This document shows positions 1 through 58,801 of a DNA stretch of 58,801 nucleotides, piece after piece; positions within the stretch are counted from its first letter, which is position 1, and each line of letters opens with the position of its first letter. The notes below the pieces were generated by a model that ran no database searches, had not been told where the DNA came from, and was given only the letters and a program-made list of their open reading frames with translations. This DNA comes from a virus. The position numbers and the translations under genes are program-made. Location: the IMG/VR virus record IMGVR_UViG_3300028453_000003. One strand, 5' to 3'.

Positions 1-127
1 GTATTGTTTTATGGTTGCTTTGGAAAGGTTTCTTTCTGCAACAAATTGTTCAAAGTAATGACTTTCTTTCATATAATCACCTATCTTCTTTTTGTTAGGT
101 ATTATATTTTGGTGTGGGTTATTATGA
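1..127. repeat. Terminal direct repeat identical to 58675-58801 (overlap of a circular assembly)
   Basis: Read directly: 1-127 (gtattgttttatgg...ggttattatga) recurs exactly at the window end. It contains the first 72 nt of the integrase ORF. Confidence 0.95.
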
Positions 128-52451: not shown

Positions 52452-52892
52452 TCACCTCACACTAAATCTTTTCATATATTCTGCAAAATCGTAAGCATTT
52501 GCATTAGCAACCCCAAAAAGAGAATGGTATTTATTATGACAATATTTACACAATGTAATACCATTACTTAATTCCACTCTTAAAGAGGGATAATTTTCAT
52601 ACCCATAGATATGATGAGCAACTAAATGTTTATCTTTTGGAAAACCACAACATTGACAAACTTTATCCCTTTCCTTAACATCAGAAACCCATTGTTGATA
52701 AATGGGAGAATTTCTTGTTACTGAACGACCATCTATTTCATCATAATCTGCTTTCTTGATTTCTTCTATTGTTTCATATTCATTAATAAGAAATTCTTCT
52801 CTGATTTTAAGATGTTTTTCTCTTTTCTTTAATTCTTGCATCTTCCTTGAAATTTCTAAATTAGGATTATTTCTATAAAAAATGGATTCCAT
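52452..52892 (-). CDS. HNH endonuclease
   Basis: CQCCGF...HLVAHHI...NGITLCKYCHNKYH. Confidence 0.75.
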   Translation of the reverse strand: MESIFYRNNPNLEISRKMQELKKREKHLKIREEFLINEYETIEEIKKADYDEIDGRSVTRNSPIYQQWVSDVKERDKVCQCCGFPKDKHLVAHHIYGYENYPSLRVELSNGITLCKYCHNKYHSLFGVANANAYDFAEYMKRFSVR

Positions 52893-55253: not shown

Positions 55254-55288
55254 AAAAAAAGCGAAAAACCTAATTAAAGATTTTTCGC
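55254..55288 (-). terminator. Hairpin plus T7
   Basis: gcgaaaaa/tttttcgc stem (55261-55268/55281-55288) enclosing the stop codon, followed in minus sense by seven T. Confidence 0.55.
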
Positions 55289-55828
55289 AATTGGGAACAT
55301 CTTCCCATTCTTATTGACACCACAATGTACCATACATTCGTAACCATCAAGTGCCTCTTCAAGTTCTTCAACAGTAAACTTGATCCCACCAGTAAAATCG
55401 GATGGTAACTCACCACTTGATATGAAACAAGGTCTGACAAACTCTGCCAATGCAGAGTTGCCACCACATACAAGTACATTTTCCTCTTCCTTATCATGAT
55501 TGCAGAAAAGGAAAAAGGTAACTTCTTGAGCATCATCGATAATCTCAATTTCTTCAACTTCATTTCCAAGATTATCTTCAGTCATTACAACTTTGCCATC
55601 ATCATCAAGTTTCCTTGCACGACATTTTGGCATATCATCAAGGATTGACATTTTAAGGGTAAATAAGGTGTATTTACCAAATTGACCCTCTTTCTCACTA
55701 ATGTACACTTTTTCTACACCACAATGCACACCATCTTTCTTATGCCAACTTTTGACAGAAGATAAAAAGGTATTCATTGTTACTCTATCTTCATCGAATG
55801 AAGATTTTTCTTCTAACATTTCTACCAT
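55274..55828 (-). CDS. First protein of the replication operon, function unknown
   Basis: ATG at 55828 follows gaggtgaaaaaa. The track start at 55837 is GTG. Confidence 0.5.
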   Translation of the reverse strand: MVEMLEEKSSFDEDRVTMNTFLSSVKSWHKKDGVHCGVEKVYISEKEGQFGKYTLFTLKMSILDDMPKCRARKLDDDGKVVMTEDNLGNEVEEIEIIDDAQEVTFFLFCNHDKEEENVLVCGGNSALAEFVRPCFISSGELPSDFTGGIKFTVEELEEALDGYECMVHCGVNKNGKMFPIAKNL

Positions 55829-55893
55829 TTTTTTCACCTCTGAATAAATGTATAATTGTAATCACAAGCAATACTCATTAAACTTGTGATGGA

Positions 55894-55941
55894 TAAGCAA
55901 GTTGGGAATCGAACCCAAATCCAAGACACCAGTCTTTGCTT
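55894..55941 (-). ncRNA. tRNA top-half-like minihelix A
   Basis: Minus sense: AAGCAAA / 16-nt connector / TTGGG-TTCGATT-CCCAA / CTTGCTT-A. The T-arm is canonical and there is no D or anticodon arm. Confidence 0.5.
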
Positions 55942-56021
55942 ACAAGGTTGATATTATGAATAGAGTTTAGAACAAAAAATTGTTCAAGGATGGGGAAAAT
56001 AAGCAAAAACCCATCCTTAAA

Positions 56022-56071
56022 GTGCTTGGGTAGGAGTTGCACCTACTGGATCAACTGTCTTGACCAAGCAC
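56022..56071 (-). ncRNA. tRNA top-half-like minihelix C (degenerate T-loop)
   Basis: Minus sense: GTGCTTGG / TCAAGACAGTTGATCCA / GTAGG-TGCAACT-CCTAC / CCAAGCAC. Confidence 0.4.
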
Positions 56072-56108
56072 GAGAGGTCTAAAATTATGAAGTGCCACTA
56101 CAATTTCA

Positions 56109-56249
56109 GTTGGGTAGTGGTAGCAGTAACTCCTTTAAAAATTTTAAAAGGGGTGTAATTGATTTATATGAGTAATTTTTGGGGTGATTTAACAATATGA
56201 ACAAAGATTCGTGTTTAATCCATCGGAGTTACTGCTATCACTATCCAAC
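56109..56249. repeat. 25-bp inverted repeat enclosing 91 nt
   Basis: gttgggtagtggtagcagtaactcc (56109-56133) pairs with ggagttactgctatcactatccaac (56225-56249). The two mismatches are G-T on the plus strand. Confidence 0.85.
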
Positions 56250-56416
56250 CAAATGGTTGGTGGTAAAGTTCGGATAATAAAATAATTAATCTTTTAGTCA
56301 ATTTTTGCATTATTTTAATAATTCTTATTTCAATACTCTACGAACCTTACCAATTGAGTATTCATAGAAAATCAAATTATCTAATTTTTAATAGTTTTCA
56401 TATTCTATAAAAAATA

Positions 56417-56695
56417 GGGTAGCATAATGGTGTTCTCCACCACTACCCCTTTTCCAATCCGAATAGGATTAGTCATTCAATTGCATTAATCAAATCTGAA
56501 AGTTTTTATAATCATGATTACATTAATTATTAAAAGAATGCAATTGAAAGCCATAGCCAAGTGTTGAAACTTGGAGTTGGAAAAAAATGTAAAAGCCAAC
56601 TTGCCGACCATCTATGGCAACCATTTTCCCACTTATATAACACCTTTAATATTCGGAATTGCTTGGAGAATATGGTTAAATGCTCCAAACAATCC
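56417..56695. ncRNA. Cluster of abutting perfect hairpins and a three-way junction (candidate structured RNA)
   Basis: Nested hairpin at 56417-56448. Hairpin aatcc/ggatt at 56456-56470. 11-bp stem at 56477-56487/56537-56547 with an inner 12-bp palindrome. 7-bp closing stem at 56550-56556/56612-56618 around two 6-bp hairpins. Extended hairpin at 56655-56695. Confidence 0.45.
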
Positions 56696-56698
56696 AAT

Positions 56699-56747
56699 GA
56701 GCGATGGTGGGAATCGAACCCACCAAGACAATCACCAGTTAATCGCT
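56699..56747 (-). ncRNA. tRNA top-half-like minihelix B
   Basis: Minus sense: AGCGATT / AACTGGTGATTGTCTTG / GTGGG-TTCGATT-CCCAC / CATCGCT-C. Confidence 0.5.
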
Positions 56748-56912
56748 CTATTTTTGGAGGAAAAATCTAATTGACATTTTAGATTGTAAAAATTGTTACT
56801 AAAAATAAAAATGACATGCACCATACAAGTGAAACACAAGCAACTATCTTGAAATCTCTTGTACGAACCTTTACACCATTATCCCTTTGAGGATATAATG
56901 TTTTAGGTTGCA

Positions 56913-57032
56913 TTATTTACCACCTTTGTAATCTTTTCTTTGAAGTTTTAAAATCTGTACAAAGGCATCGTACTCTTGTGGGGTCATATCGACTCTCACG
57001 AATTTATTAGAAATAGTTTTATCTACTTTCAT
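56913..57032 (-). CDS. Ribbon-helix-helix protein (Cro-like candidate, 39 aa)
   Basis: gaggtgaaatttt RBS. Translation: MKVDKTISNKFVRVDMTPQEYDAFVQILKLQRKDYKGGK. Confidence 0.5.
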   Translation of the reverse strand: MKVDKTISNKFVRVDMTPQEYDAFVQILKLQRKDYKGGK

Positions 57033-57149
57033 AAAATTTCACCTCTACTTTCCAAAGATTCTTTTGGTATGGCAGTACCCATCTAAATCTTCGTTGATAA
57101 TACTTTCATCAAAGTAATATATAAATGTTTGCATAATGCTTTATAGTAA

Positions 57150-57177
57150 TACAATATATATTGTAGTATATAATACA
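57150..57177. promoter_or_regulatory. Operator-like palindromes in the divergent intergenic region
   Basis: 16-bp perfect palindrome tacaatatatattgta (57150-57165). TACAA/TTGTA half-sites recur at 57173-57177. Confidence 0.5.
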
Positions 57178-57246
57178 ATTTTCTATTTGAAAAATATAGC
57201 AAACAATAAAAACAACAATAAACATAATAAAATATGGTGATAAAAA

Positions 57247-57417
57247 ATGAGCAAAAATGTATCAATGTTGAATGTAAGGATTAGCAACGAACTGAAAAAA
57301 GAGTTGAAACTAATCGCAGTCTACGAGGAAACTACTGTTAGCGATGTTGTGATTGGCTTCCTTGAATATGGGATCAAGGTTTATCATAATGAGCAAAAAC
57401 TTATTAAAGATAAATAA
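57247..57417 (+). CDS. Ribbon-helix-helix (CopG-like) regulator, repressor candidate
   Basis: Translation: MSKNVSMLNVRISNELKKELKLIAVYEETTVSDVVIGFLEYGIKVYHNEQKLIKDK. It is one of the two plus-strand genes I accept and is divergent from the early genes. Confidence 0.6.
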   Translation: MSKNVSMLNVRISNELKKELKLIAVYEETTVSDVVIGFLEYGIKVYHNEQKLIKDK

Positions 57418-57424
57418 TATAATA

Positions 57425-57571
57425 ATGTATTGTGCAATCAAAGAACATATTATTTCACCTCTACTTTCTGGAATAACTATTTTTTTTGCATTGCATATTA
57501 TTGGGGGTGCAATGGCAGTTGCACCTCCTTTTTTACCACCATCATATTTTTCTGTTTTTATTTATATTTAA
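57425..57571 (+). CDS. Small membrane protein (48 aa) downstream of the RHH gene
   Basis: Translation: MYCAIKEHIISPLLSGITIFFALHIIGGAMAVAPPFLPPSYFSVFIYI. This is the in-frame tail of track ORF 57353-57571. Confidence 0.3.
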   Translation: MYCAIKEHIISPLLSGITIFFALHIIGGAMAVAPPFLPPSYFSVFIYI

Positions 57572-57643
57572 AATGAGTATTAGAGAGCATTTGAAAACTA
57601 AAATTATAACAATTGTTATATTGTAATTTAAAAAAAGAGAAGA

Positions 57644-57673
57644 GAATGTTGATGTTATAATTCTTCAACATTC
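57644..57673. terminator. Hairpin between convergent genes
   Basis: gaatgttga/tcaacattc stem (57644-57652/57665-57673). The loop contains the int stop codon. Confidence 0.4.
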
Positions 57674-58746
57674 ACATCAAATACTTGAACCAATTCCAAC
57701 AACTTGTCGATTTTTTGTTCGTTCCTTTCAAATTCTCTTCGTTGTTGATTAATAACACTTGATTCGTGGTTTATAAGTACATTGTTCATTGCATTTATGT
57801 ACTTATGTTTCAATTCTACGGGGTTCTTCTTCAAGTAGATTTCCCTTATCTTGCCTCTGCTCCTACCTTGGATGAAATCAACTTCGGCTTCAGAAAGTGC
57901 ATTTTCACCATTGCAAAGCATAGTTGCATTGAACTTTCGTAGCATATGGCTTCTGAAACGATTGTAGATTCCGACTTTGCCTAAACCGAGAATATCATTG
58001 ATTTGACCCATTAAGTAATTGATGTAATTACTGCTCACTTTGAATAGTGGTGAGTCGAGTTCAAGTTTACGATTGGCATTTAGGAGCATTTTCACTATTT
58101 CGTGTACTGCTTCAGGTGAACAGAATGTGTAATAATATTCATTCACTTTTCCTCTTTTCATTGTGAAAGTTGGTATTATCATTTCTTCACTTGAGTATAA
58201 TTCAATTAGCATTTCTTTGATTGATTTGCTTTCATCAAGTTTTCCACAACTTTCAAGGAACTGCCCAACAGTCAAACTTAAACATTCTGCCTTTGCCATT
58301 CCACTACTGCATTGTAGTAGTATAAATGCTCTCATCATTAGGCTACTGAAGTCAAGGGCTTCTCTAATGATTGATTTTGTTGGCAAGTCTTTGAAGCCTA
58401 TTGGTTTTTCTTTTCTTATGTTTTTATCGCTCATATATGGTAGTGTTGGTATTTCTATTTCAAAGTGGCGATAGAAACTTTTTACTTGTGTCATCTTGTT
58501 TTGGATAGTGTGTTTGCTATCTTTTTCTACGATGTATTTTCGGTAGTTTACGAGTCTTTGTCTTAAGGTTCTTTTTTTGAGTCTGATGCCCTCTTCTTCT
58601 TCGTTGTCTGCTTCTTCGATGAGTTCATCGAGGCTCATTTGGTTGTATTTTGTATATTCTCTTAGGCTTGTTTTGTATTGTTTTATGGTTGCTTTGGAAA
58701 GGTTTCTTTCTGCAACAAATTGTTCAAAGTAATGACTTTCTTTCAT
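57655..58746 (-). CDS. int: Tyrosine recombinase / integrase
   Basis: N-terminal SAM-like domain (LSKATIKQYKTSLREYTKY). C-terminal RSHMLRKFNATML (HxxR) and GRSRGKIREIYLK (catalytic Tyr). Confidence 0.85.
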   Translation of the reverse strand: MKESHYFEQFVAERNLSKATIKQYKTSLREYTKYNQMSLDELIEEADNEEEEGIRLKKRTLRQRLVNYRKYIVEKDSKHTIQNKMTQVKSFYRHFEIEIPTLPYMSDKNIRKEKPIGFKDLPTKSIIREALDFSSLMMRAFILLQCSSGMAKAECLSLTVGQFLESCGKLDESKSIKEMLIELYSSEEMIIPTFTMKRGKVNEYYYTFCSPEAVHEIVKMLLNANRKLELDSPLFKVSSNYINYLMGQINDILGLGKVGIYNRFRSHMLRKFNATMLCNGENALSEAEVDFIQGRSRGKIREIYLKKNPVELKHKYINAMNNVLINHESSVINQQRREFERNEQKIDKLLELVQVFDVNVEEL

Positions 58747-58801
58747 ATAATCACCTATCTTCTTTTTGTTAGGTATTATATTTTGGTGTGGGTTATTATG
58801 A
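58675..58801. repeat. Second copy of the terminal direct repeat (identical to 1-127)
   Basis: Identical sequence read directly. Confidence 0.95.

What the first reader, a model, noticed from the sequence alone, without database searches (positions are those of the whole stretch)
56270..56900. ORF-free, structure-dense locus: candidate large ornate ncRNA next to tRNA-like elements
Between the Cro-like RHH gene and the replication operon there is about 1 kb without any credible ORF. It is packed with perfect helices that abut one another. 56417-56448 is a two-level hairpin (gggtag/ctaccc around tggtg/cacca). 56456-56470 is a small hairpin. 56477-56547 has an 11-bp stem with an inner 12-bp palindrome, taatcatgatta. 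56550-56618 is a three-way junction: a 7-bp closing stem gccatag/ctatggc around hairpins ccaagt/acttgg and agttgg/ccaact. 56655-56695 is a bulged 12-bp hairpin that leads directly into minihelix B. A second motif, TGGT(GT)AA(A)GGTTCGTA in minus sense, occurs at 56340-56353 and 56862-56878. Large structured RNAs adjacent to tRNA genes are known from bacterial phages (GOLLD and ROOL classes). I know of no archaeal-virus counterpart, so this is a candidate for a new class or a distant relative.
Basis: partly seen in the sequence, partly recalled or inferred. Interest (0 to 1): 0.7.

Follow-up and report, generated by a model that had tools for sequence, protein, structure and literature searches.

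The report
tRNA-like structured RNA array, methanogen virus
A virus of the gut and rumen methanogen Methanobrevibacter carries a conserved stretch of about 940 bases that encodes no protein but folds into a chain of RNA hairpins and four stripped-down tRNA look-alikes; no such RNA locus turned up in Rfam or in my literature searches for an archaeal virus.

Summary
They are conserved in about 20 non-redundant related viral contigs and carry heavy compensatory change: 96% of cells paired, 33 of 48 pairs changed on both sides, 0 of 500 shuffles as good. G-U pairs outnumber A-C pairs 57:6, so the folded strand is the minus strand, the strand of the neighbouring genes.

The element runs 55838-56778, wider than reported. 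The inner palindrome is not conserved.

The tRNA-like elements are part of the locus, not neighbours. There are three anticodon-less minihelices and one three-way-junction tRNA mimic, each followed within 0-5 nt by a hairpin. A 19-bp long-range helix competes with a second hairpin, and there is one candidate pseudoknot.

No Rfam family matches, including GOLLD, ROOL, OLE and HEARO. ARAGORN finds no tRNA.

My best reading is tRNA-like punctuation of the early replication transcript by host RNase P and tRNase Z. That step is inferred, not shown. It is a new variant of a known kind, and I rate its interest as moderately high.

The parts
56699..56748 (-). tRNA-like minihelix B. It has a 7-bp acceptor (GAGCGAU/AUCGCUC), a linker UAACUGGUGAUUGUCUU, a 6-bp T stem and the loop UUCGAUU. 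It has no D arm and no anticodon arm.
   Evidence: (tRNA-Sec model, 20.8 bits, below threshold). It is kept with changed acceptor and T-stem sequences in relatives.
56655..56695 (-). Hairpin hp2, 13 bp with one bulge, with a conserved loop motif UAACCA.
   Evidence: It folds as a hairpin in 18 of 18 relatives with unrelated stem sequences.
56673..56678 (-). Loop strand (AACCAU) of the candidate pseudoknot. It pairs with AUGGUU at 56619-56624.
   Evidence: Both motifs are present in 18 of 18 relatives. The L253/L251 lineage has AACCC paired with GGGUU, one compensatory event.
56619..56624 (-). 3' strand (AUGGUU) of the candidate pseudoknot. It directly abuts the acceptor stem of the three-way junction.
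56626..56649 (-). Nearly invariant single-stranded blocks UUAAAGGUGUUA (56638-56649) and AAGUGGGA (56627-56634).
   Evidence: Alignments. Their function is unknown.
56550..56618 (-). tRNA-like three-way junction. It has a 7-bp acceptor-like stem, a D-stem-less linker AUGGUCGGCA, a 5-6-bp stem with a 15-nt U-rich loop CUUUUACAUUUUUUU, and a 6-bp T-like stem with loop UUCAAC (UUCGACC in relatives).
   Evidence: The three helices are 97-99% paired, with 5/7, 3/5 and 4/6 pairs changed on both sides. RNAalifold gives the same helices.
56477..56547 (-). Hairpin hp5, a 12-bp stem around an AT-rich interior of about 47 nt.
   Evidence: 98% paired, 9 of 12 pairs changed on both sides. The inner palindrome is not conserved.
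56454..56473 (-). Hairpin hp6 (CUAAUCC/GGAUUGG). It has conserved G-U and U-G pairs that would be A-C on the other strand.
   Evidence: column pairs 187/209 (UG 14, GU 4) and 188/208 (GU 12).
56417..56448 (-). Two-level hairpin hp7. The outer stem is 6 bp and the inner stem 5 bp (UGGUG/CACCA), with a GNRNA-type pentaloop (GAGAA, GCGAA).
   Evidence: All 6 outer pairs change on both sides. A GAGAA- or GCGAA-type hairpin is detected on the minus strand in 15 of 22 loci by a strict scan, including the most divergent ones. The alignment shows it in all 19 aligned relatives.
56332..56363 (-). Hairpin hp8 (AAUACUC/GAGUAUU) with an 18-nt loop. The 5' strand AUGAAUACUC is almost invariant.
   Evidence: Covariation cannot be assessed because one strand does not vary.
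56245..56260 (-). Small hairpin W (CCAACC/GGUUGG), immediately 5' of the long helix.
   Evidence: 88-89% paired, 5 of 6 pairs changed on both sides.
56109..56249 (-). Long-range helix with arms 56225-56249 and 56109-56133. The 19-bp core is 56225-56243 paired with 56115-56133. It encloses a loop of about 91 nt.
   Evidence: (I1): 99% paired in 21 sequences, 15 of 19 pairs changed on both sides.
56095..56120 (-). Competing hairpin (CCACUAC 56114-56120 with GUAGUGG 56095-56101). It reuses the 3' arm of the long helix, so the two helices are mutually exclusive.
   Evidence: 95.8% paired, 4 of 7 pairs changed on both sides.
56020..56070 (-). tRNA-like minihelix C. It has a 7-8-bp acceptor (GUGCUUGG/CCAAGCAC) and a 5-bp T stem with loop UGCAACU. 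In some relatives the linker carries an extra hairpin.
   Evidence: T stem 92.9% paired; acceptor 6 of 7 pairs changed on both sides.
55986..56018 (-). Hairpin hp12 (AAGGAUGGG/CCCAUCCUU) with a U-rich loop GUUUUUGCUUAUUUUC.
   Evidence: The U tract is kept in 12 of 16 relatives.
55894..55942 (-). tRNA-like minihelix A, with a 7-bp acceptor, a linker AGACUGGUGUCUUGGAU and T loop UUCGAUU. Its T arm, acceptor 3' strand and trailer resemble those of a canonical viral tRNA-Gly in the distant relative L246.
   Evidence: (tRNA model, 17.4 bits).
55861..55890 (-). Hairpin hp13 (AUCACAAG/CUUGUGAU). It lies between minihelix A and the ribosome-binding site (55834-55841) of the 184/187-aa gene.
   Evidence: 96.4% paired, 6 of 8 pairs changed on both sides.
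56779..56913 (-). Flanking 44-aa gene for a small hydrophobic protein. It is not part of the RNA and sets its upstream boundary.
   Evidence: It is conserved as protein, with in-frame indels, in all relatives.

Best explanation
Window 55838-56778 is a non-coding, highly structured RNA segment read from the minus strand. It belongs to the early operon of a temperate tailed virus of Methanobrevibacter.

That operon runs in this order: a promoter with a TATA-like box near 57118-57125, a 39-aa gene, a 44-aa gene, this RNA, a 184/187-aa gene, and then the 625-aa replication protein.

The RNA is a modular array. It holds four tRNA-derived elements that lack an anticodon: minihelices B, C and A, and one three-way-junction mimic. 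Each keeps an acceptor stem stacked on a T arm, for 13 bp or more in total. Each is followed within 0-5 nt by a hairpin. Between them lie further covarying hairpins, a 19-bp long-range helix with a competing hairpin, and a candidate pseudoknot.

The most likely mechanism is inferred, not shown. The tRNA-like modules would act as punctuation. Host RNase P and tRNase Z would cut at their 5' and 3' ends. That would release small stable structured RNAs and leave each downstream fragment starting with a protective hairpin. One such fragment would be the replication-gene mRNA, which would start with hp13.

I am about 85-90% confident that this is a selected, minus-sense, single-stranded fold, and about 45% confident in the punctuation mechanism.
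For: Shown:
- Homologous regions occur in about 20 non-redundant contigs, 58-96% identical in the adjacent protein, with constant synteny.
- Covariation is strong. A2 is 96.2% paired with 33 of 48 pairs changed on both sides and 0 of 500 shuffles as good; slid controls give 26-44%. The A4 long helix is 99% paired with 15 of 19 pairs changed. The competing hairpin is 95.8% paired. hp13 is 96.4% paired. RNAalifold predicts the same helices.
- The folded strand is the minus strand. G-U versus A-C counts are 57:6, 31:8 and 36:19. The tRNA-like scanner gives 48 hits in minus sense against 1 in plus sense.
- The tRNA-like modules are specific to this lineage: 24 per 100 kb in family loci against 0.3-0.5 per 100 kb in 80 Methanobrevibacter genome loci and 120 unrelated viral contigs (the 3 hits in that control set fall in L158, itself a family contig), and 0 in distant relatives.
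- At least 69% of 62 elements are followed within 6 nt by a hairpin detectable in a 48-nt window. Most of the rest are three-way-junction mimics, whose follower hp5 is too long for that window.
- ORFs inside the region change frame between relatives.
- No conserved internal TATA-like box exists; the only one is near 57125.
- Minihelix A resembles the T arm, acceptor strand and trailer of a canonical tRNA-Gly found in a distant relative's early region.

Precedents for the inferred step:
- Plant mitochondrial t-elements cut by RNase P and RNase Z (PMC1920247).
- The tRNA-like structure 5' of Haloferax 5S rRNA, cut by tRNase Z (PMC3296008).
- MHV68 TMERs, a tRNA-like element plus downstream hairpins processed by tRNase Z (PMC4838037).
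Against: - There are no expression data, so no transcript ends, no evidence of cleavage and no evidence of CCA addition.
- The acceptor-plus-T stack is 13 bp or more, not the canonical 12. That could shift or weaken recognition by RNase P or tRNase Z.
- The pseudoknot pairs the 5' flank of the three-way junction with the hp2 loop. That would hinder RNase P there and argues for a larger folded unit.
- Conserved U tracts of 5 or more in two hairpin loops could terminate archaeal transcription inside the array.
- The function of the released RNAs would remain unexplained.
- G-T wobble asymmetry alone cannot distinguish RNA from folded single-stranded DNA.
Confidence: 0.45

Rival explanations
1. 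It is one large, ornate, trans-acting ncRNA. The whole region of about 0.9 kb would fold and act as a unit, perhaps as an RNP or an oligomer like GOLLD or ROOL, with the tRNA-like parts serving as structural modules.
For: - Order and spacing of all modules are colinear in 19 relatives.
- Invariant single-stranded linkers are present.
- A candidate pseudoknot ties hp2 to the three-way junction.
- A long-range 19-bp helix is present.
- GOLLD and ROOL also lie near tRNAs in prophages (PMC5737381).
Against: - No Rfam match, including those families.
- Nearly all supported helices are local. A scan for further long-range covarying stems found only weak candidates.
- Module number differs in divergent relatives: L245 has 5 minihelices and L253 has an extra one.
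- There is one multistem junction, against six in ROOL.
Confidence: 0.15
2. It is a cis-acting leader. The structured segment would control how much transcription or translation reaches the replication genes, by attenuation or antitermination, or by a switch between the long helix and the competing hairpin.
For: - It lies inside the early operon, between promoter-proximal small genes and the replication genes, next to the RHH/operator switch.
- Two mutually exclusive helices are both conserved.
- Conserved U tracts are present.
- hp7 is a 5-bp stem with a GNRNA pentaloop, the same format as lambda boxB as I recall it from memory.
Against: - 940 nt and 13 or more helices are far more than known leaders need.
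- Four tRNA-like modules are left unexplained.
- No U tract directly follows the competing hairpin.
- No archaeal antitermination system of this kind is known.
Confidence: 0.15
3. The minihelices are tRNA 'top-half' decoys. As anticodon-less acceptor/T-arm mimics they would titrate or divert host factors that act on that half of tRNA. Candidates are toxins or defence nucleases that target the acceptor end, the CCA-adding enzyme, and RNase P. This would make the locus an RNA counter-defence.
For: - Selection keeps exactly the acceptor/T-arm half and a GG-containing linker while the D and anticodon arms are gone.
- There are several copies per genome, and copy number varies.
- In distant relatives the same position is filled by small accessory genes or a real tRNA.
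Against: - This is purely inferential. No target is identified.
- It does not explain the other hairpins or the strict hairpin-after-element rule.
- A 13-bp stack may impair recognition by tRNA enzymes.
Confidence: 0.1
4. The function is at the DNA level. The locus would be a replication origin or single-strand initiation signals next to the Rep and primase genes, or attP arm sites for the integrase.
For: - It is adjacent to the replication module and 0.9 kb from the integrase.
- It has AT-rich stretches and long inverted repeats.
- G-T wobbles can also form in folded single-stranded DNA.
Against: - Strand-asymmetric pairing and compensatory change in 12-19-bp stems do not fit duplex protein-binding sites.
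- There are no iterons or direct repeats above chance.
- T-loop motifs and tRNA ancestry point to RNA.
- Relatives of the integrase are mostly not next to tRNA genes.
- MSTV1-like proviruses integrate in 3' ends of protein genes or in intergenic sites (PMC11375127).
- The window is a circular assembly without att ends.
Confidence: 0.07
5. These are decaying tRNA pseudogenes and chance hairpins without function.
For: - Minihelix A looks derived from a tRNA-Gly-like gene.
- ARAGORN and Rfam do not recognise any of them as tRNA.
Against: - Acceptor and T stems keep pairing through many double changes, across relatives whose adjacent protein has diverged to 58% identity.
- Loop and linker motifs are invariant.
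Confidence: 0.03

Closest known systems
Plant mitochondrial t-elements (tRNA-like processing signals; PMC1920247)
   Same: - Non-canonical tRNA-like folds that keep the GGTTCRANYCC T-arm motif and an acceptor-like stem.
- They are embedded in longer transcripts next to mRNAs.
- Stem-loops are also found at mRNA ends.
   Different: - They occur in an organelle, not a virus.
- They are single elements, not arrays.
- Cleavage at t-elements was mapped experimentally. Here nothing is mapped.
- Here the stack is 13 bp or more, and a hairpin follows every element.
MHV68 TMERs (tRNA-miRNA-encoded RNAs; PMC4838037)
   Same: - Virus-encoded clusters of units, each made of a tRNA-like element directly followed by hairpins.
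- tRNase Z separates the two parts.
   Different: - It is a eukaryotic herpesvirus. Each unit has its own Pol III promoter, and the hairpins are pre-miRNAs for Dicer.
- TMER tRNA-like parts are described as tRNA-like elements, not as minihelices.
- Archaea have no Dicer or miRNA pathway.
tRNA-like structure 5' of Haloferax volcanii 5S rRNA, cut by tRNase Z (cited in PMC3296008)
   Same: An archaeal precedent for tRNase Z using a tRNA-like fold to mature a non-tRNA RNA.
   Different: - It is cellular rRNA processing with a single element.
- It shows no sequence relation to this locus.
GOLLD and ROOL large ornate RNAs (Rfam; PMC5737381, PMC12286853)
   Same: - Large, conserved, non-coding and structured.
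- Found in prophage or virus contexts close to tRNA-type sequences.
- ROOL was also first found in rumen metagenomes.
   Different: - No covariance-model match.
- Their hosts are bacterial.
- They have many multistem junctions and pseudoknots, against one junction and one candidate pseudoknot here.
- Here the tRNA-like parts are internal, repeated modules.
tRNA-like domain of tmRNA and tRNA minihelices (from memory)
   Same: An acceptor stem stacked on a T arm, with a D-loop-like GG-containing strand and no anticodon arm.
   Different: - Archaea lack tmRNA.
- Here the linker is only 10-18 nt.
- The stack is 13 bp or more rather than 12.
- No CCA is encoded.
- No evidence of aminoacylation.
Lambda/P22 boxB (nut site) hairpin (from memory)
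   Same: hp7's inner hairpin is a 5-bp stem closed by a 5-nt GNRNA loop (GAGAA, GCGAA). It lies in an early operon downstream of the switch region.
   Different: - There is no boxA and no N-like protein.
- No archaeal N/Nus antitermination is known.
- The resemblance is in format only.

Membership tests
GOLLD / ROOL / OLE / HEARO (Rfam large ncRNAs) | Match to the family covariance model | tested here: not met
   Whole window at gathering score: 0 hits. Region 55700-57700 at E<=10: none of these families listed. 17 related loci: only one canonical tRNA, in L246.
GOLLD / ROOL / OLE / HEARO (Rfam large ncRNAs) | [quoted passage not shown] | tested here: not met
   One three-way junction (two in some relatives), one candidate pseudoknot, otherwise serial hairpins. 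ROOL features come from PMC5737381.
GOLLD / ROOL / OLE / HEARO (Rfam large ncRNAs) | Homo-oligomeric RNA-only assemblies (PMC12286853) | not testable with these tools
   Needs cryo-EM or native gels.
Canonical tRNA | Cloverleaf with D arm and anticodon arm, recognised by tRNA finders | tested here: not met
   ARAGORN finds 0 in the window and in 27 loci (family plus distant relatives) apart from the canonical tRNA-Gly in L246. The Rfam tRNA and tRNA-Sec models score 17-21 bits against thresholds of 29 and 47. Linkers of 10-18 nt leave no room for the two arms.
Canonical tRNA | 7-bp acceptor plus 5-bp T stem (12-bp stack) and a T loop of the form UUCRANY | tested here: inconclusive
   The T-loop motif is met (UUCGAUU in most). 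The stack is 13 bp or more in all 32 distinct elements, never 12.
tRNA-like processing signals (t-element type) | tRNA-like fold with a GGTTCRANYCC-type T arm and an acceptor-like stem | tested here: met
tRNA-like processing signals (t-element type) | Embedded in a longer transcript next to coding regions | tested here: inconclusive
   Same strand as all flanking genes. No conserved internal TATA-like box; the only one is near 57125. No conserved U tract between the 44-aa gene and minihelix B. There are no RNA data.
tRNA-like processing signals (t-element type) | Transcript 5' and 3' ends coincide with the ends of the element, from cleavage by RNase P or RNase Z | not testable with these tools
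   Needs end mapping or in vitro cleavage.
TMER-like unit (tRNA-like element plus downstream hairpin) | A hairpin directly 3' of each tRNA-like element | tested here: met
   62 elements in 22 loci. 69% have a hairpin starting within 6 nt with dG<=-6 in a 48-nt window. The longer hp5 after the three-way junction accounts for most of the rest.
TMER-like unit (tRNA-like element plus downstream hairpin) | Own Pol III promoter per unit, and Dicer-processed miRNA hairpins | tested here: not met
   This cannot apply in archaea, so the resemblance is in layout only.
attP / integrase arm sites | Identity to the 3' end of a host tRNA gene, repeated arm-type sites, and duplex recognition with no strand asymmetry | tested here: not met
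   No direct repeats above chance. G-U:A-C is 57:6. Both acceptor strands covary. Related integrases are mostly not at tRNA genes. Identity to a host tRNA could not be tested exhaustively.

The most novel reading that the evidence does not exclude
The virus has converted tRNA genes into anticodon-less 'top-half' tRNA mimics, with a stack of 13 bp or more and a GG linker. It would express them in an array as a weapon against the host. They could act as decoys or competitive substrates for host enzymes, toxins or defence nucleases that act on the acceptor/T-arm half of tRNA. Alternatively they could be handles that recruit the tRNA-processing machinery to assemble a virus-specific RNP from the intervening hairpins. 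In either case this would be a new class of archaeal viral RNA effector rather than a processing signal.
Probability: 0.12. Interest if true: 0.9.

Novelty: new variant of a known kind. Interest (0 to 1): 0.66.

Why it matters
- Almost nothing is known about non-coding RNAs of archaeal viruses, and I found nothing on those of methanogen viruses. My literature searches found no description of tRNA-like or structured RNA loci in Methanobrevibacter viruses.
- This locus is about 940 nt under clear structural selection. It lies between the lysogeny switch and the replication genes of a virus lineage that infects the main methane producers of the rumen and gut.
- It shows tRNA genes being reduced to their acceptor/T-arm half and kept under selection. 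That bears on how viruses reuse the tRNA fold and the host tRNA-processing machinery.
- It gives concrete, testable cleavage sites and structures for work on archaeal RNase P, tRNase Z and RNA stability.

Tried and rejected
- **Rfam.** The gathering and permissive scans gave only sub-threshold noise: a MIR7723 'hit' that is simply the long inverted repeat, and tRNA and tRNA-Sec at 17-21 bits.
- **Phage GenBank collection.** blastn against it found no match.
- **Genome collection.** The single integrase as query found nothing. The integrase alignment found only 35-45% relatives in Methanobrevibacter MAGs without the RNA locus, so no integrated copy was available to define attP.
- **Pattern TGGTGTTCKCCACCA in viral contigs.** It was too unspecific, with more than 120 mostly chance hits. 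L223 from the metagenome scan is a chance hit in a bacterial contig.
- **Covariance model of the minihelices.** I abandoned it because MAFFT did not keep the acceptor strands in register. A rule-based scanner with shuffle and strand controls replaced it.
- **First hp2 pair count.** My pair list on A3 was mis-registered, giving 48% paired. Per-sequence folding replaced it.
- **Further long-range helices.** A covariation scan gave only weak AT-rich candidates. The tempting pairing of AUAUGAA (56393-56399) with UUCAUAU (56197-56203) could not be separated from chance.
- **Peptide reading.** The ORF MVAIDGRQ... over the three-way junction was rejected because its frame changes between relatives. 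A plus-strand SD+ATG in the long-helix loop was rejected for the same reason.
- **The 184/187-aa neighbour.** Pfam and PHROGs gave nothing. The AlphaFold model (pLDDT 80) has no significant PDB fold match, only weak OB/SSB-like hints at E>0.1.
- **Encoded CCA in minihelix A.** The 'UCCA' after it is trailer sequence that follows the discriminator, as in the L246 tRNA-Gly, so it is not an encoded CCA end.
Full report
**What the window is**

The 58.8-kb window is a circular assembly: bases 1-127 repeat 58675-58801. It is a tailed virus whose genes lie almost all on the minus strand. Recognisable genes include:
- a Mu/T4-like portal,
- an HNH endonuclease,
- a DnaG-type zinc-ribbon protein,
- a tyrosine integrase at 57655-58746(-).

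Relatives of the integrase at 35-45% identity occur in dozens of Methanobrevibacter MAG contigs. Related contigs place a PeiW-like C39 peptidase just upstream of the integrase. The 625-aa neighbour matches a Methanothermobacter plasmid protein domain, PF27228.

**Gene order around the finding**

This order is constant in all close relatives:
1. integrase;
3. a switch region with a perfect 16-bp palindrome (57150-57165) and a TATA-like box (57118-57125, minus sense);
4. a 39-aa gene (56913-57032);
5. a 44-aa gene (56779-56913);
6. about 940 nt without a gene (55838-56778);
7. a 184/187-aa gene (start 55828 or 55837);
8. the 625-aa replication protein.

**Checking the observation**

Window 56410-56752 folds far better than dinucleotide shuffles on either strand: z = -4.9 at -100.5 kcal/mol on the minus strand, and z = -5.05 at -86.6 kcal/mol on the plus strand.

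Three details do not hold:
The 44-aa ORF 56779-56913(-) and the 39-aa ORF upstream are conserved as proteins, with in-frame indels, in all relatives.
The shared 10-nt core is one of three such repeats in 1.9 kb, and the ORF copy drifts like codons.
- **The inner palindrome of the 56477-56547 hairpin is not conserved**.

**Relatives**

I collected about 50 loci, which reduce to 22 non-redundant upstream regions. The adjacent protein is 58-96% identical among them. They came from three routes:
- IMG/VR;
- a DNA-pattern scan of metagenome contigs;
- homologues of the adjacent 187-aa protein, traced back to their contigs.

More distant relatives (36-44% identity) have small ORFs in place of the gap, and in one case a canonical tRNA-Gly.

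**Covariation and strand**

All alignments below are in minus sense.

| Block | Sequences | Cells paired | Pairs changed on both sides |
|---|---|---|---|
| 56628-56410 (3WJ, hp5, hp6, hp7), given structure | 19 | 96.2% | 33 of 48 |
| Long helix 56225-56243 / 56115-56133 | 21 | 99% | 15 of 19 |
| Competing hairpin 56095-56120 | 21 | 95.8% | 4 of 7 |
| hp13 (55861-55890) | 14 | 96.4% | 6 of 8 |

- For the first block, 0 of 500 shuffles reached the observed values, and sliding the partners by 1-3 columns gave 26-44% paired. RNAalifold, run without my structure, predicted the same helices: 45 pairs, 31 of them with compensatory change.
- The competing hairpin reuses the 3' arm of the long helix, so two mutually exclusive helices are both maintained.
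- hp2 (56655-56695) folds in 18 of 18 relatives with unrelated stem sequences.
- G-U pairs outnumber A-C pairs 57:6, 31:8 and 36:19 in the three blocks. The folded strand is therefore the minus strand, the sense strand of all surrounding genes.
- ORFs that overlap the helices change frame between relatives.

**The tRNA-like modules**

ARAGORN finds no tRNA, and Rfam's tRNA models score below threshold. The minus strand nevertheless carries three minihelices:
- B at 56699-56748,
- C at 56020-56070,
- A at 55894-55942.

Each has this layout:
- a 7-8-bp acceptor stem;
- a 10-18-nt linker, usually containing CUGGUG;
- a 5-6-bp T stem;
- a UUCGAUU-type loop (UGCAACU in C);
- no D arm and no anticodon arm.

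The three-way junction has the same frame, with a hairpin inserted in the linker. That hairpin has a 5-6-bp stem and a conserved 15-nt U-rich loop.

A rule-based scanner gave these counts:
- 48 such elements in minus sense against 1 in plus sense in the 22 regions, and about 0.4 per shuffle round;
- 24 per 100 kb in family loci;
- 0.3-0.5 per 100 kb in 80 Methanobrevibacter genome loci and 120 unrelated viral contigs (the 3 hits in that control set fall in L158, itself a family contig);
- none in distant relatives;
- nowhere else in the window.

The contiguous acceptor-plus-T stack is 13 bp or more in all 32 distinct elements, never the canonical 12. Copy number varies between lineages, from 3 to at least 5 per locus.

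The T arm, acceptor 3' strand and trailer of minihelix A resemble those of the canonical tRNA-Gly(UCC) in the distant relative L246. The minihelices therefore look like reduced tRNA genes.

**A grammar**

Each tRNA-like element is followed within 0-5 nt by a hairpin: B by hp2, the three-way junction by hp5, C by hp12, and A by hp13. This also holds for the extra elements of divergent relatives (62 elements). hp13 sits directly before the ribosome-binding site of the replication-module genes.

The loop of hp2 (AACCAU) is complementary to AUGGUU, which abuts the acceptor stem of the three-way junction. Both motifs are present in 18 of 18 relatives, and one lineage has the compensatory AACCC/GGGUU. 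This is a candidate pseudoknot.

Conserved U tracts of 5 or more lie in the loops of the three-way junction and of hp12. In the 1.3 kb upstream of the 187-aa gene, the only conserved minus-sense TATA-like box is the one at about 57125. That suggests co-transcription with the two small genes and the replication genes.

**Interpretation**

*Shown:* a lineage-specific, minus-sense, single-stranded fold of about 940 nt is under strong structural selection. It is built from tRNA-derived modules and hairpins.

*Inferred:*
- It is RNA rather than folded single-stranded DNA. The grounds are the T-loop motifs, the tRNA ancestry, and its sense orientation within an operon.
- The tRNA-like modules recruit host RNase P and tRNase Z to cut the early transcript. 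This would release small structured RNAs and leave each downstream piece, including the replication mRNA, with a 5' hairpin.

Precedents are plant mitochondrial t-elements (PMC1920247), the tRNA-like structure before Haloferax 5S rRNA (PMC3296008), and the tRNA-like-plus-hairpin units of MHV68 (PMC4838037).

Points against this reading:
- the non-canonical 13-bp stack;
- the pseudoknot that occupies the 5' flank of the three-way junction;
- the U tracts;
- the lack of any expression data.

The rivals are scored in the Rival explanations section:
- one large ornate RNA;
- a cis-regulatory leader that uses the competing helices;
- tRNA top-half decoys;
- DNA-level origin or attP functions;
- functionless remnants.

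**Comparison with known families**

The locus is not a member of GOLLD, ROOL, OLE or HEARO. No covariance-model match exists, and its architecture is far simpler than ROOL's six junctions and three pseudoknots. Its elements are not canonical tRNAs.

It resembles t-elements and TMERs in layout but meets none of their lineage-specific criteria. The inner hairpin of hp7 has the 5-bp stem and GNRNA pentaloop format of lambda boxB. That resemblance is from memory only.

Literature searches found no description of tRNA-like or structured RNA loci in Methanobrevibacter viruses.

**Verdict**

It is wrong in its family guess, its boundaries, and its treatment of the tRNA-like parts as neighbours.

I file it as a new variant of a known kind, namely virus-encoded tRNA-like RNA modules. 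Its function still has to be tested.

Noticed in passing
window 1-127 and 58675-58801: The two ends of the window are identical over 127 nt. The record is therefore a circular assembly of about 58,674 bp, with no host flanks or att ends.
   Followed up: yes
window 57118-57180: The region between the plus-strand RHH-like gene and the minus-strand early operon holds a perfect 16-bp palindrome, TACAATATATATTGTA (57150-57165). It is flanked by two TAATACAAT copies. A minus-sense TTTATATA box lies at 57118-57125. All are conserved in relatives. This is a likely operator and promoter of the lysis-lysogeny switch.
   Followed up: partly
window 56779-56913(-) and 56913-57032(-): Two overlapping small genes, of 44 aa with a hydrophobic C-terminus and of 39 aa, are conserved as proteins in all relatives. 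Neither has a significant match in Pfam; in PHROGs only the 39-aa protein has a weak hit (E 0.004) to a family of unknown function.
   Followed up: partly
window 57503-57528(+): A terminator-like hairpin followed by a T run lies after the RHH-like gene. Its pairing is kept, with changed sequence, in relatives.
   Followed up: no
window 57030-57052 and 57446-57468: A 23-nt direct repeat (91% identical) carries an SD-like AGAGGUGA plus an ATG in minus sense. The second copy lies just downstream of the integrase, is conserved in relatives, and is followed by an ORF of only about 14 codons.
   Followed up: no
L246:2507-2577: A distant relative, whose adjacent protein is 44% identical, has a canonical tRNA-Gly(UCC) and many small ORFs where this virus has the structured RNA. 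Its T arm, acceptor strand and trailer resemble those of minihelix A.
   Followed up: partly
L237:1461-4334; L234, L239, L248, L250: In one relative the replication-protein homologue is 957 aa with a LAGLIDADG_3 hit, an intein-like insertion. HNH and GIY-YIG endonuclease genes are scattered through the replication modules of relatives. The window has an HNH gene at 52452-52892.
   Followed up: no
window 56575-56597 and 55995-56009: Conserved U tracts of 5 or more in minus sense lie in the loops of two covarying hairpins: the three-way-junction arm (16 of 16 relatives) and hp12 (12 of 16). They could be partial archaeal terminators or Lsm-type binding sites.
   Followed up: partly
window 55274-55837(-): The 184/187-aa protein that always follows the RNA locus gives a confident all-beta/alpha AlphaFold model (pLDDT 80). 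It has no significant match in the PDB, only weak OB/SSB-like hints. It could be a new fold or a very divergent one.
   Followed up: partly
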